Of a DNA stretch of 64,000 bases, positions 55,899-63,119 are shown piece after piece. Positions within the stretch are counted from its first letter, which is position 1. Each line of letters starts with the position of its first letter. The position numbers and the translations under genes were made by a program. Origin of the DNA: Prorocentrum cordatum (taxonomy: Eukaryota); the NCBI GenBank assembly GCA_963575745.1, contig CAUYUJ010000044.1:1-64000 (forward strand), in the 5' to 3' direction. A model generated the notes under the pieces. The model worked only from the letters and a program-made list of their open reading frames with translations, was not told where the DNA came from and searched no databases.

Positions 55899-55977
<79 letters not shown>

Positions 55978-55982
<5 letters not shown>

Positions 55983-56073
55983 CGTTTCTTTTGAATATGA
56001 ATGCCTTTAGAGGGGAAGGAAGAGGCCGAATGCAGAATGCGTTGTGTCCTTTCAATATTTCGGCTCTCGAGCT
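55978..56073 (+). repeat. Split direct repeat A1
   Basis: tttcttttgaa...gaatgcctttagaggggaagg...gaatgcgttgtgtcctttcaata...cggctctcgagct is repeated at 61314-61411. Confidence 0.95.
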
Positions 56074-56479
56074 GGTGGGCCGCGGCGTGGCCGCGGCGCA
56101 TGGCCGGGGCCTTCCTGGGGCTTCCCGCGGGTTGGGCAGGGCTCATCGACCGCGCTGGGGCGTCCCTGCGCTCCAGGCGTGGGTCGCGCGCTGCCCTGCC
56201 CGGCAGTGGAGCTCCCGCCGTGCCCAGCGTGCCCAGGGTGCAGCGGCCCATCCTGTCCGCCCTGCCCTGGAGCCACGGTGGGCGCGACCACGGGCACCGT
56301 CGCCCTCGCCTGTGGGACGGCCGCGCTGGCTGGCGCGTCGCTCGGGGCCCTCGGCACGTTCACGGCGCTCCGGCTCCGGGCGCCGCTCTGGGGTGCGGCG
56401 GAGGGCCGCGGCCGGCCTCCGACGGTCGCCAGCGCGGCCAGGTCGCCACCGCCGTTCGCCGCGCTCGCCGGGGGACCTC

Positions 56480-57151
56480 ATGGCGGAGGCGTGGGCGTGG
56501 GTCCTGTACAACGTGGTCGGCGCGCCGCTGTTCCACCAGAGGAGGGTGGCGGGCCAGCTGGCACTCACGAGTGACGTCGTCATCGTGACCCCGGACGACA
56601 TGGTCTACGCCGAGACTTTGCTGGCGGCGGGGCCCGACGTCTCGGCGGTGAGGTTCTCGGCCGCGAGGTGGCCGCCGCCGCCGGGGACCGCGGCGTGGTG
56701 CGTGGCGTGGTTGCTGAGGGATGGCGGGCCCATCCAACGCCGCGAGAGCTGGAAGTCCCGCAAGCGGCTCAGCTCATCGGACTGGGGCGTCTCAGAGCAC
56801 CACGCGCTCTCCACCGTGCTGGAGGACCTCGCCACGCATGACGCGGTCGATGTGACGAACCTCCTCGGCGTGGAGCGGATGCTGAGGAATATGCAGCTGA
56901 TCGAGCATTTCTGGGGCGAGAAGCAGCGAGGGCAGGATGCTGGACAACTGAAGTTGCCGGTGGAAGCGGTCTCCGCCTTCGTGGGCGGCGCGGGTCTGTC
57001 GAGCCGCCCGAGCAGCCTGGTGCGCCCCGCCCTGCTGGGCGTCGTCGGGAAGGAGCTCGAGCGCATCAGTCAGATCAAGAAGAACGCCCGCGAGCTGCGG
57101 GAGGAGGCGAAGGCCGCCGCTGGGCCGAAAGCCAGCGGAGCCAAGGCATGA
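56480..57151 (+). pseudogene. gag-like ORF1 of element 1 (probably internally deleted)
   Basis: MAEAWAWV...SEHHALSTVLEDLATHDAVDVTNLLGVERMLRNMQLIEH...KNARELREE, directly upstream of pol. Confidence 0.6.
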
Positions 57152-57158
57152 CTCTCTC

Positions 57159-59639: not shown

Positions 59640-60360
59640 CATGCGTGCGGGGGAGACCGCGGCGCAAGCGCCCAAGGCAGCCTCCCCTCGCTTCTCGGCG
59701 GGCCATGTCCTGAGGGCCCTCTCGATCTCGGCGGTCCCGAGGGCCAAGTGCACGCGCCTCTGGGCCGATGTCGTGGCCTGGATGACGTCCGTGACCGTGG
59801 CCCTCCGCGCCGAGACCGCGGACGACCTGCCGGAGCACTGGGTGGGCCAGCAGCGCGCCGAAGAGGGGGGCCCCGAGCGCATGGCCTACGGGCTGGTTGC
59901 GCTGAAGTTCATGATGCCGCAGTTCGGGCGCGGGGGCCAGGGGTTGCCGAAGACGCAGGTCTACAACGTGGTGATCTCAGTCGACCTGCCGTTCTACAGC
60001 TCCCTGCCCGGCGCTCTGAGCTGGCTCAAGGCGGGGGCCCGCCCGAGCGAGCCGAGCGCCCCGTTCACCCTCGTGCGCGTCAGCCCCTTGTTCAAGGAGG
60101 CGGCGGAGGGCGTGAAGCTGGCGTCGCTCGCCCCGCGGCTGTGCCAGCTGCGGCGCTCGGGCCCGTCGGTGGAGTTGGCCCTGCGGCTGCGGGCCCTGGC
60201 CAGCGTCAAGCTCCGCGGCCGTCGGCGGGCCGACGCGTCGGTTGCGCGCCTCCCCATGCCAGGCCGCGTCGGCGCGCAGCCGCAGAGGCTGGCGCCCAAG
60301 GTGCGGCGCGCGGCCCCGCTGGCCCCGGCGCGGCTGGCCTCTCTCCTCGGCTGGCGCTGA
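59640..60360 (+). pseudogene. Tyrosine recombinase of element 1, decayed
   Basis: LCQLRRSGPS (Y.LRH.G.S box) and KLRGRRRADASVARL (RGRW...SV.RY box); the central Arg box appears deleted. Confidence 0.7.
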
Positions 60361-60389
60361 GGAGGCTGCTGGGCCCCCGCCGCCGCCGT

Positions 60390-61137
60390 TTCCAGGCGCC
60401 CCCGATCTTCGCGGGGGTTTTCTCCGGCGAGGGCGCGCTGGCGGCAGCTCTGCGGAGCGAGGGCGCCCTGGTCATCGAGTGGGGCATCGCCTGGGGAGCG
60501 ACTGGGGCCTCGCCAACCTGAAGTGTCCCGGGTGTTGCGGGGCTGGCTGGGCGCCGGCCTGATCTGCGGCCTGCGTTTCGGTGCGCCCTGCGAGACGTGG
60601 TCCAGAGTCCGGGGCGCCGGGCCGCCGCGCGTGCCAGGCGAGCCCCCGTCCTGGCCAAGCCGCCTCCGCTCCGACTCAGAGCTCTGGGGGCTCGCAGCCG
60701 TGGCGCACCCAGCGGACCGAGCTCAGATTATGACCGCCAATAAGTTAGTGAGGTGCTGTGAAAGTGTGTGGGTCAGTTGCGATAGGCTGTGGCTCATTCC
60801 GTCTCTGCAGTGCTTCCGAAAACAACCGCATTTTTCCTGGGCGGTCACGCATTTTTGCCAAGACGGGGCCGCGTGGAAAAAAAAACCGACAAGTCTCCTT
60901 GGCTATCGTGTGGATGTCTCAGCCTTCGCTCGTTTGCGCGCTGGCTCTCGTTCGCGTTGTAGTAGGACTGGTCAGCTCCATCAGATTCCAAGAGGAAAAG
61001 CTCCAGGAAGGCCTCTGTGGACTTTAGTTGCGCATGCCTACCCCAGGGCACTTGCGAGACGATGGGCTCGCGCGCTCATCTGCGCCAGGCTCCACTCCGA
61101 GGCTCTGTCAATCGCGCCGATCTGGCTAGGCCGCTAA
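60390..61137 (+). pseudogene. C5-cytosine DNA methyltransferase-like ORF, frameshifted near 60515
   Basis: Motif I-like FAGVFSGEGAL, motif IV-like GAPCETWS (catalytic PC), FCQDG..WKKKPT, terminal AYPRAL; ENP/ENV motif missing. Confidence 0.7.
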
Positions 61138-61178
61138 CGCAGAAGAGTAGCTAGCCCTCCGGATATTTCGGGATGTTT

Positions 61179-61588
61179 TGGCCGTGGGGCCGTGCGCCAG
61201 AGCAGAACTTCGGTTGATGAGTATTCTCTCTTGCTCGCCCCAGAGTCGTTCACGGTGCTGCCTCTTGCTGTCTAACAGAATCCGACCTGGCCTCGGAAAT
61301 AACATCGTCGGGCATGGGCTTTTCTTTTGAAGACGAATGCCTTTAGAGGGGAAGGGGGAGGCCGAATACAGAATGCGTTGTGTCCTTTCAATAGCCTTCG
61401 GCTCTCGAGCTCCCACCCTCCCGCCCTGTTGCTGCTGTAAGGCTTCGCCGTGGCCGTGGGGCCGTGCGGCAGAGCAAGAATTCGGTTGATGAGTATTCTC
61501 TCTTGCCGGCCCCAGAGTCGTTCACGGTGCTGCCTCTTGCTGTCTAACAGAATCCGACTTGGTCTCGGAAATAACATCGTCGGGCATG
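61179..61588 (+). repeat. 3' split repeats B1-A2-B2
   Basis: tggccgtggggccgtgcg...ggaaataacatcgtcgggcatg at 61179-61316 and 61451-61588, bracketing A2. Confidence 0.95.
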
Positions 61589-63119
61589 ATGATGGTGATG
61601 ATGATGATGATGATGGCGATGAGGATGATGGCAATGACGACGACAATTTTGATGACAATGATGGGTTTGCTAATGATGCTGACGATGACGGGTACGGCTC
61701 CTATGTTTATGATGATGATGGTGCCGATGACGACGATGAGGCAGATGGTGACTATGGCAATGACCCCGATGACGACGAGCATGGCGATGATGTTGATGAT
61801 GGTGAAGATGTTTTTGATGATGAGGATGCTGACGACGATGACGATGAGGATGATACTGATGATGGCGATGGCAACGGCGACGATGGCGACGAACATGATG
61901 ATGCTGCTGCTGATGAGGATGGCGCGACAAATATGGCCGATAATGACGGTGCTTGTGTTGCTGACGACGTGGATGATGACGTTTAGGACGATGATGCTCA
62001 TGCTAACAATGTTGGTGGTGATGGTTGAGGTGGTGATGATGATGCTTACGATGCCAATGATGATGATGCTGATGATGCTGATGATGCTGATGATGCTGAT
62101 GGTGGTGATGGCGATGTTGATGATGATAATGACGATGCTGATGATTATGATGATGGGGATGCTGATGATGATGATGATGATGATGATGATGCTGGTGATC
62201 GCGGTGGTGATCACGATGGTAGCGAAGATGACGATGATCACGCTGACGAGACGATGACGATGGCTATAATGATGCTCGCGATGCTGATGGTGGTGATGAT
62301 GATGGTGATTGATTACTGCACCACTATGGCGAGGACGAGGAGGAGGACGACGACGACTTCGACGACGACGATGACGATGACGTTGACGGTGATGAGGATC
62401 CTCATGATGATGCTGATCATGATGGTGAAAATGACATGGATATCGTGGATAATGACGAAACTGATGATGATGACGACGAGGACGACATTGATGCCGATTA
62501 TGATTACGATGGCCCTGCCGATGCTGATAATGATGATGATGATGATGCTGATGATGGGGATGATGATGGTGATGATGCTGATGATCATGATCATGGTGGT
62601 GGTTGTGATGATGATGATGCTGATGATGATGATGGCGATTATGATGCTGATGCTGCTGATGATGATGATTATGACGATGATCGTGATGTTGGCGATACCG
62701 ATGGCCATCATTGGAGGAGTGCGCGCGCGGGAGTTCGCGCTGAAAAGGGAGGAGGGGGGTAGGAGCTTGTGCAGAGTAGGGAGGCGGCAGGAAGAGAAGG
62801 AGGAGGGGGACAAGGATGAGGAGAAGGAGTAGGATAGGGAGGAGTAGGAGGAGAAAAAGCATGAGAAGGAAGGAGGAGAAGACAGGGATGAGGAGGAGGG
62901 AGAAAGAGGAGGAGGACGAGGACGAGGACGAGAATCATGGGAAACGGTCGCGCGCAAGGGGTGGCGTCGCGGAGACTTGGAATTCCGGATTACTCGTTAG
63001 GGGTCCTGCCCGAACGCTCCGATTTCCGAAGTTACAGGTTCCCGCCCTCCAGATTCCTTGGTCTTTTCCGGGCAGTCGTCTCCTCCTCCTCTGCTCCTGT
63101 CTTTTCCTCCAGTCCTCTC

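What the first reader, a model, noticed from the sequence alone, without database searches (positions are those of the whole stretch)
55960..61620. Microsatellite-targeted integration through a shared ATG
The left junction reads gatgATG|gacgtttcttttgaa, the right junction cgggcATG|atgatgg, and the internal B1/A2 junction (a copy of the predicted circle junction) cgggcATGggcttttcttttgaa. One ATG is shared between the donor junction and an (ATG)n target, with no separate TSD. This is what a tyrosine-recombinase crossover at ATG would leave, and it suggests the abundant (GAT)n tracts act as landing pads.
Basis: partly seen in the sequence, partly recalled or inferred. Interest (0 to 1): 0.75.

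Follow-up and report, generated by a model that had tools for sequence, protein, structure and literature searches.

The report
Decayed dinoflagellate tyrosine-recombinase retrotransposon in (ATG)n
This is an old, broken copy of a known kind of jumping gene (a DIRS-type retrotransposon that inserts with a tyrosine recombinase), and its shared ATG is the usual three-base signature of that kind; deliberate aiming at ATG repeats is not shown.

Summary
Window 55978-61588 (+) is a 5.6-kb element with split direct repeats A1-[genes]-B1A2-B2. One ATG sits at the B1/A2 junction and at both ends, and the neighbouring bases differ on both sides. The element carries gag-like, RT/RNase H, tyrosine-recombinase (YR) and C5-methyltransferase-like regions, and its best protein matches are named Prorocentrum cordatum. 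This copy is dead: the repeats are 90-94% identical, there are frameshifts, and the YR has lost Arg-I, His, Trp and Tyr.

Fourteen metagenome relatives share the architecture. In 3 of 3 complete ones the junction and both ends share one trinucleotide (CAT). This is the published DIRS-order integration model: a 3-bp circle junction recombines with an identical genomic triplet and leaves no TSD. The crossover reading is therefore right but already known.

The "landing pad" idea rests on this one insertion. In this window 31% of all ATG/CAT sites lie in perfect (ATG)n tracts, so an ATG-limited integrase would often land there without further aiming. None of 7 relatives' ends lies in a CAT/ATG microsatellite. 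Other copies of this family could not be reached because no assembly is held. Verdict: a new member of a known kind, of modest interest.

The parts
55900..55977 (+). Left flank: 26 perfect ATG units, the end of a >600-nt imperfect ATG/GAT-rich region (about 55309-55977)
55978..56073 (+). A1, the left split direct repeat. Its first three bases, ATG (55978-55980), are the shared trinucleotide
   Evidence: 89.8% identical to A2 over 98 nt
56495..57130 (+). gag-like region (within the open frame 55979-57151)
   Evidence: tblastn with the L002 gag ORF and P0010; no Pfam family
57276..58949 (+). Reverse transcriptase and first half of RNase H (motifs DIADA, LPMGW, YVDNF, TDASEWGRG)
   Evidence: 66-83% identity to proteins that a source names Prorocentrum cordatum. 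Relatives reach Pfam RVT_1 (L002 38.6 bits, cut-off 29.6). The window copy itself has no Pfam hit
59255..59410 (+). Second half of RNase H (DS..A..AL.KGRSS ... RWIPSEAN), in a different frame from the first half, so pol is frameshifted
59494..60303 (+). Tyrosine-recombinase remnant. The stretch holding Arg-I (LRPSE in P0002) is missing. LRHSG reads LRRSG, GRW reads GRR, and the RY tyrosine is L
60405..61041 (+). C-terminal C5-methyltransferase-like domain remnant (FSGEG ... PCETWS; the ENP stretch is lost; frameshift near 60498)
   Evidence: Two X1 contigs (all the depth laid there) carry an extra C behind 60498 (table 4). Fold of the L002 homologue:
61179..61316 (+). B1, the internal copy of the right repeat
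   Evidence: 94.2% identical to B2 over 138 nt
61314..61316 (+). ATG shared by the B1 end and the A2 start: the internal copy of the predicted circle junction
61314..61411 (+). A2, the internal copy of the left repeat, followed by a 39-nt spacer (61412-61450)
61451..61588 (+). B2, the right terminal repeat, ending in ATG (61586-61588)
61589..62200 (+). Right flank: ATG ATG GTG (ATG)6 ... an imperfect ATG/GAT-rich region in the same phase as the left flank

Best explanation
Window 55978-61588 is an old, inactivated copy of a dinoflagellate DIRS-order (tyrosine-recombinase) retrotransposon. Its layout is split direct repeats A1-[gag, RT/RNase H, YR, C5-methyltransferase-like domain]-B1A2-B2. Inferred mechanism, following the published model for this order: the RNA is reverse-transcribed; the internal B1A2 segment serves as template to rebuild a closed circle whose junction reads B-ATG-A; the element's tyrosine recombinase then crosses that ATG over with an ATG in the chromosome. 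This leaves ATG at both ends and no target-site duplication. Here the target ATG lay inside a long (ATG)n tract. The simplest account of the location is that such tracts hold a large share of all ATG triplets in this genome region. They are therefore hit often without any extra recognition of the repeat. What is shown: the anatomy, the 3-nt overlap, homology of every coding part, the decay of this copy, and the same signature in relatives. What is inferred: the circle, the crossover, and the absence of special aiming.
For: Anatomy and the 3-nt overlap. Coding parts are homologous along the whole element to 14 metagenome relatives and to proteins that a source names Prorocentrum cordatum. Intact relatives L002 and L005 have gag, a long RT-RH-...-methyltransferase-like ORF, and a YR ORF lying inside it in another frame. 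RVT_1 is above cut-off in L002. The YR alignment carries RPGE/RPEE, SKTGE/SKVGE, (L/I)RHG(G/S)AS, RGRW and RRY. In 3 of 3 complete relatives (L002, L005, L013) the junction and both ends share CAT (4 nt, CATA, in L013), with otherwise unrelated flanks and no further duplication. Among the right ends, the B end reads CAT in 5 of 7 and CA in 2 of 7. [quoted passage not shown] A-coding-B-A-B DIRS elements with a DNMT in pol and a separate YR ORF are described in Symbiodinium (PMC5890265, passages). Background: 764 of 2470 ATG/CAT sites (31%) of the pre-insertion window lie in perfect tracts of >=4 units. Age and decay: A1/A2 89.8% and B1/B2 94.2%, against 98-100% in relatives; frameshifts and lost YR residues.
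Against: Only one copy of this family could be examined at its ends, so the family's real target spectrum is unknown. The window copy itself matches no Pfam family. The YR of relatives stays below Pfam's gathering score (best 24.2 bits against 27.1; 3 of 8 members at E<=0.05), and a profile found no solved YR by sequence. The YR call therefore rests on these sub-threshold matches, which span nearly the whole Pfam domain, and on motifs read by eye. The 31% background comes from one 58-kb window that may be richer in ATG tracts than the genome. In a repeat the crossover register is not unique: a 2-of-3 match of CAT with GAT would give the same product. Two of 7 relatives' right ends share only CA, so perfect 3-nt identity is not obligatory.
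Confidence: 0.75

Rival explanations
1. True microsatellite targeting. This family has specialised on (ATG)n tracts, for instance because the recombinase or the gag-like protein recognises the repeat or its chromatin, or because many equivalent registers speed up synapsis. Most copies would then sit in such tracts.
For: The one copy seen lies inside a tract of at least 26 perfect units. The family's junction triplet (ATG on the coding strand) differs from the relatives' CAT and matches the strand of 75 of the 76 perfect tracts in the window. YR-bearing endogenous nimaviruses insert in (TAACC)n repeats (PMC10871703, abstract passage), so YRs can be repeat-specific.
Against: The sample is one insertion. 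A plain ATG requirement already gives about 31%, so the observation favours targeting over that model by a factor of at most about 3. None of the 7 relatives' ends lies in a CAT/ATG microsatellite. Donor and target share nothing beyond the 3 nt.
Confidence: 0.2
2. The repeat grew after the insertion. The element landed at a single ATG, and its terminal ATGs seeded slippage that built the flanking microsatellite.
For: The left tract is perfect for 26 units, although the element's own repeats have diverged by 6-10%. The tract has therefore been homogenised or extended since the insertion.
Against: Both flanks are ATG/GAT-rich and imperfect for more than 500 nt and are in the same phase. Similar clusters without any element lie at five other places in the window. 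The region pre-dates the element.
Confidence: 0.03
3. The flanking ATGs are an ordinary 3-bp target-site duplication made by a DDE-type integrase or an endonuclease, and the internal ATG is a coincidence.
For: In a repeat, a 3-bp TSD and a shared crossover triplet look the same.
Against: No integrase or endonuclease was found; the only integration enzyme in the element and its relatives is a YR. The triplet is part of the internal B1A2 junction. Independent insertions of relatives all carry the same CAT (5 of 7 right ends; all 3 left ends that could be read). TSDs would differ from site to site.
Confidence: 0.02

Closest known systems
SymbioDIRS-Dnmt3, DIRS-like retrotransposons of Symbiodinium (de Mendoza et al. 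2018, PMC5890265; passages read)
   Same: Dinoflagellate host. Repeats arranged A-coding-B-A-B. A methyltransferase domain within the pol ORF together with RT. A separate YR ORF. An RT too divergent for Pfam, as that paper notes and as seen here.
   Different: Here the methyltransferase-like domain matches no Pfam family (0 of 10 members) and no solved chain by sequence; only motifs and a weak fold match point to C5-MTases. Whether it is the Dnmt3-type domain of that paper, and where the RT falls in their tree, was not tested. The passages read do not describe target sites. The best-matching proteins here are named Prorocentrum, not Symbiodinium.
Ngaro superfamily (A1-[ORFs]-B1A2B2; for example the Cafeteria burkhardae Ngaros, PMC8547959; passages read)
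   Same: The same split-direct-repeat layout, about 6 kb, GC-rich, gag-like plus RT/RNase H plus YR.
   Different: Ngaro are described as lacking a methyltransferase domain and usually lacking ORF overlaps (PMC3266345, passage). The intact relatives here have an extra C-terminal domain, and their YR ORF lies wholly inside the pol ORF in another frame.
DIRS1-like elements (Dictyostelium DIRS-1 and the 28 annotated elements of PMC3266345; passages read)
   Same: A YR instead of an integrase; a 3-bp junction shared with the target; no TSD; a methyltransferase domain after RT/RH; long ORF overlaps.
   Different: [quoted passage not shown] Their methyltransferase is Dam-like (adenine) according to PMC5890265. 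Their usual triplet is NTT (23 of 28), whereas here it is ATG and CAT.
Microsatellite-inserting retroelements of other classes (Naiad/Chlamys Penelope-like elements, PMC8557442; passages read) and YR-bearing endogenous nimaviruses in (TAACC)n (PMC10871703; passages read)
   Same: Insertion in simple repeats, which hides any TSD. The nimaviruses show that a YR can be repeat-specific.
   Different: Penelope-like elements use a GIY-YIG endonuclease and target-primed reverse transcription. The nimaviruses are large DNA viruses with unrelated YRs. In both, the bias is shown on many copies; here on one.

Membership tests
DIRS order (tyrosine-recombinase retrotransposons) | Reverse transcriptase and RNase H of retroelement type | tested here: met
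   RT/RH region 57276-58949 and 59255-59410 is homologous to relatives. L002 reaches Pfam RVT_1 at 38.6 bits (cut-off 29.6). The window copy alone has no Pfam hit.
DIRS order (tyrosine-recombinase retrotransposons) | Encodes a tyrosine recombinase (R..K..HxxR..W/H..Y) and no DDE integrase | tested here: inconclusive
   Relatives carry RPGE/RPEE, SK(T/V)GE, (L/I)RHG(G/S)AS, RGRW and RRY. Pfam Phage_integrase matches 3 of 8 members, best E 2.9e-5, all below the 27.1-bit cut-off. No solved YR was found by sequence profile. The window copy is a remnant without Arg-I, His, Trp or Tyr. No integrase family was found.
DIRS order (tyrosine-recombinase retrotransposons) | A 3-bp sequence shared by circle junction and target; no target-site duplication | tested here: met
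   Window: ATG at 55978-55980, 61314-61316 and 61586-61588, with mismatches on either side. Relatives: CAT in 3 of 3 complete elements, with no further duplication.
Ngaro superfamily | Split direct repeats A1-[ORFs]-B1A2B2 | tested here: met
   for the window; for L002, L005, L013 and L011.
Ngaro superfamily | No methyltransferase domain and usually no long ORF overlap (as stated in PMC3266345) | tested here: not met
   A conserved about 230-aa C-terminal domain with FSGxG, PC and ENP motifs is found by tblastn in 12 of the 14 metagenome loci and in the window (10 sequences aligned). The YR ORF lies inside the pol ORF in L002 and L005.
DIRS1-like superfamily | Inverted terminal repeats with an internal complementary region | tested here: not met
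   The terminal repeats are direct and split. No terminal inverted repeats of the element were found.
PAT-like superfamily | Split direct repeats, with RT grouping as sister of DIRS1-like | not tested
   The repeats fit. No RT phylogeny with reference PAT, DIRS1 or Ngaro sequences was made, because none was available from a tool.
SymbioDIRS-Dnmt3 | C5 cytosine methyltransferase domain within the pol ORF | tested here: inconclusive
SymbioDIRS-Dnmt3 | A-coding-B-A-B repeats and a separate YR ORF in a dinoflagellate | tested here: met
   The dinoflagellate host is inferred from source names of the best protein hits (Prorocentrum cordatum, Amphidinium carterae).

The most novel reading that the evidence does not exclude
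This Prorocentrum-type family has changed its junction triplet, from the CAT of its relatives to ATG on the coding strand. It thereby specialises on the genome's abundant, strand-biased (ATG)n tracts as safe landing pads. If so, it would be the first microsatellite-specific member of the DIRS order and a natural case of a YR retargeted by changing three bases of its own circle junction.
Probability: 0.2. Interest if true: 0.55.

Novelty: new member of a known kind. Interest (0 to 1): 0.3.

Why it matters
Showing that this is the standard DIRS-order signature removes a seemingly novel mechanism from the list. Three modest points remain. First, it documents a DIRS-order lineage with split direct repeats, a YR ORF nested in pol and a C5-methyltransferase-like tail in a Prorocentrum-type genome, and intact, apparently young copies in metagenome contigs. 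Second, the junction triplet differs between related lineages (ATG against CAT), which fits the idea that three element-encoded bases set the target. Third, if a genome-wide tally showed strong enrichment in (ATG)n, the family would be a simple natural model for how a recombinase-based retroelement finds harmless sites in a very large genome.

Tried and rejected
**Attempts to reach other copies of the family**
- Earlier notes of this scan held nothing by place, sequence or words.
- Sequencing runs: only small-share holders were listed (0.15 and 0.05 of sampled words), and no RNA holder was listed.
- Laying them: X1 gave 272 short contigs of the family over a range of divergence (21 at >=99%, 48 at 95-99%, 86 at 90-95%, 117 under 90%). 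The longest pieces listed are about 200-370 nt. No loose end at either terminus was among the rows shown (165 rows not shown). One X2 contig ends its match at 61316 and runs on for 41 letters that were not printed. No flank could be read.
- Exact-pattern scans with the B end and an A stretch: viral contigs gave one 22-nt chance match in an unrelated 41%-GC contig and none. Metagenome contigs gave none.
- Protein-pattern scans of prokaryote genome contigs and viral contigs found no relative.
- A search of 1.84 billion representative proteins with the 49-aa reading of B2, hoping for ORFs that run into other copies' flanks, gave one weak hit (E 9.4e-4, five stretches) and nothing usable.
- tblastn and blastn found no second copy in the window.

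**Other tests that led nowhere**
- Sequence searches of solved structures found nothing for the YR profile or the C-terminal domain.
- The flanks of the ATG-rich region are not part of a larger repeat unit shared with the other ATG clusters.

**Readings considered and dropped**
- A 3-bp TSD.
- Post-insertion growth of the repeat as the sole origin of the tract.
- An assembly artefact; the two copies of A and of B differ, so they are not collapsed duplicates.

**Literature**
- Searches listed no paper whose title or abstract reports a DIRS, Ngaro or PAT element that targets microsatellites. The listed papers were not all read.
- Goodwin & Poulter 2004 is not held. Poulter & Goodwin 2005 was not looked up. 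Both were seen only through other papers' citations.
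Full report
**1. The observation**

Self-comparison and pairwise alignments define two repeat pairs.
- A1 55978-56073 and A2 61314-61411 are 89.8% identical over 98 nt.
- B1 61179-61316 and B2 61451-61588 are 94.2% identical over 138 nt.
- A 39-nt spacer lies between A2 and B2.

B1 and A2 overlap by exactly three bases, ATG (61314-61316). The same ATG begins A1 and ends B2. One base further out on either side, donor and flank differ: C against G upstream, G against A downstream. The shared stretch is therefore exactly 3 nt.

The left flank is 26 perfect ATG units at the end of a >600-nt imperfect ATG/GAT-rich region. 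The right flank continues in the same phase. A separate TSD cannot be judged inside a repeat.

**2. What the element is**

No Pfam family matches any frame of the window copy. The long frame 56952-59291 finds proteins that a source names Prorocentrum cordatum (66-83% identity) and Amphidinium carterae (42%). More distant hits carry RVT_1.

A scan of metagenome contigs with an alignment of these proteins returned 14 loci with about 30-36% identical RT/RH. tblastn with the ORFs of the intact relative L002 shows the window element is homologous along its whole length:
- gag-like region, 56495-57130;
- RT and first half of RNase H, 57276-58949;
- second half of RNase H, 59255-59410, in another frame;
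- tyrosine recombinase, 59494-60303;
- a C-terminal domain, 60405-61041.

L002 and L005 are intact. Each has a small first ORF, a gag-like ORF of about 400 aa, and a pol ORF of about 1380 aa. Each also has a YR ORF of about 400 aa lying entirely inside pol in another frame. L002 reaches RVT_1 above cut-off.

The YR alignment shows RPGE/RPEE, SK(T/V)GE, (L/I)RHG(G/S)AS, RGRW and RRY. Pfam Phage_integrase matches nearly the whole domain but stays below its cut-off (best 24.2 bits; 3 of 8 members at E<=0.05). A sequence profile found no solved YR.

**3. State of this copy**

The copy is dead.
- Pol is split over three frames.
- Other copies in run X1 carry an extra C behind 60498 (2 contigs, all the depth laid there, table 4).
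- Compared with the Prorocentrum gene models P0002 and P0003, the YR lacks the stretch with Arg-I (LRPSE). It reads LRRSG for LRHSG, GRR for GRW, and L for the tyrosine of RY.
- Its repeat pairs are 90-94% identical. Those of the relatives are 98-100% identical.

The family is multi-copy and of mixed age in run X1: 272 contigs were laid, from >=99% to under 90% alike.

**4. The shared triplet in relatives**

Of the 14 loci, 3 hold a complete element with both flanks (L002, L005, L013). Four more give a B end with its right flank (L003, L007, L010, L011). Seven gave no usable terminus.

In 3 of 3 complete elements the B1/A2 junction, the start of A1 and the end of B2 share one triplet. It is CAT on the coding strand (CATA in L013). 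The flanks are otherwise unrelated and there is no further duplication. At the 7 right ends the B end reads CAT in 5 and CA in 2.

Independent insertions carrying the same triplet rule out a TSD. They also show the triplet is encoded by the element.

None of these 7 ends lies in a CAT or ATG microsatellite. One (L005) abuts a 12-nt tandem repeat.

**5. Comparison with what is known**

The repeat layout is the A1-[ORFs]-B1A2B2 of Ngaro-type elements (PMC8547959, passages). PAT-like elements also have split direct repeats (PMC3266345, passage).

The integration signature is the published one for this order.
- Recombination occurs between the 3-bp junction and an identical genomic sequence, without TSD. 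Twenty-three of 28 annotated DIRS1-like elements begin and end with NTT (PMC3266345, passages).

DIRS-like elements with A-coding-B-A-B repeats, a DNMT inside pol, a separate YR ORF and an RT too divergent for Pfam are described in Symbiodinium as SymbioDIRS-Dnmt3 (PMC5890265, passages). That is the closest described kind. Whether the domain here is their Dnmt3-type domain was not tested.

By the description in PMC3266345 the lineage fails the Ngaro criteria 'no MT domain, no long ORF overlap'. It also fails the DIRS1-like criterion of inverted repeats. I therefore file it only under the DIRS order, as SymbioDIRS-like.

**6. The landing-pad idea**

I rebuilt the pre-insertion window (58,392 nt) and counted triplets. 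There are 2470 ATG/CAT sites on the two strands. Of these, 764 (31%) lie in perfect tracts of >=4 units, although the tracts cover only 3.9% of the bases. On the + strand alone the share is 40%.

An integrase that needs nothing but ATG would therefore land in a perfect tract about one time in three in this region. A sequence-blind insertion would do so, in the right phase, about 1.3% of the time.

The single observation supports 'ATG is required' by a factor of about 20 over blind insertion. It favours 'the repeat is specifically aimed at' over 'ATG alone' by a factor of at most about 3.

In a repeat the crossover register is also not unique. A donor CAT pairing with a target GAT at two of three positions would give the same product.

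The perfect 26-unit left tract next to repeats that have diverged 6-10% shows the tract has been remodelled since insertion. Its length at the time of insertion is unknown.

**7. Mechanism and odds**

Most likely (0.75): standard DIRS-order retrotransposition. A circle junction B-ATG-A, templated by the internal B1A2, crossed over with a chromosomal ATG by the element's YR. The microsatellite location is a by-product of ATG density.

The anatomy, the overlap, the homology, the decay and the relatives' signature are shown. The circle and the crossover are inferred from the published model.

The rivals are dedicated microsatellite targeting (0.2), growth of the repeat after insertion (0.03) and a 3-bp TSD (0.02).

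**8. Novelty**

This is a new member of a known kind. It is untested here because no assembly is held and every route to other copies' flanks failed.

Noticed in passing
window 4590-5354, 16663-17422, 27108-28095, 31670-32109, 38992-40300, 55309-55977 and 61589-62600: ATG/GAT-rich microsatellite clusters recur every 5-15 kb and are strongly strand-biased: 75 perfect ATG tracts of >=4 units against 1 CAT tract (16663-16731). This may reflect the one-directional gene arrays of dinoflagellates or Asp-rich coding. The unique flanks of the cluster around the element are not repeated at the other clusters.
   Followed up: partly
L002 7542-11672 and 9694-10902; L005 4849-9003 and 6965-8221: In the intact relatives the whole YR ORF (about 400 aa) lies inside the pol ORF in another frame. 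About 1.2 kb is therefore open in two frames. The pol reading of that stretch is low-complexity and links RNase H to the methyltransferase-like domain.
   Followed up: partly
L002 10941-11669 and homologues; window 60405-61041: A conserved about 230-aa C-terminal domain with FSGxG, PC and ENP motifs and four invariant cysteines. Pfam does not recognise it. Its predicted fold is nearest to C5 DNA methyltransferases, but it is shorter than those enzymes. It may be a reduced or repurposed DNMT.
   Followed up: partly
Right ends of L002, L003, L005, L007, L010, L011, L013; window 61589: The first flank base after the last element-matching base is A at 7 of 7 relatives' right ends and in the window. 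This hints at a target preference one base wider than the triplet. No pattern was seen on the left side (3 relatives' left ends plus the window's).
   Followed up: no
RT motif C: window about 58360-58374; all aligned relatives: The RT active-site box reads YVDN instead of the usual YxDD in 9 of the 12 aligned sequences (one reads YVDE; two have Q or R for the Y). The scan pattern H[LT][EV][YQC]VDNF reflects this. The same VDNF box is present in the intact, apparently young elements.
   Followed up: no
window 54775-54809 and 63890-63924: A 35-nt inverted repeat (74% complementary) containing telomere-like CCCTAAA/TTTAGGG motifs brackets the whole ATG-rich region plus the element at a distance of 9 kb. 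Its meaning is unknown.
   Followed up: no
window 54823-55058 and 51405-51731: A 22-nt tandem repeat array (GGCCCC.CAGGAGG.TCTTGGT) lies just upstream of the ATG-rich region, with an 80% similar array 3.3 kb further upstream.
   Followed up: no
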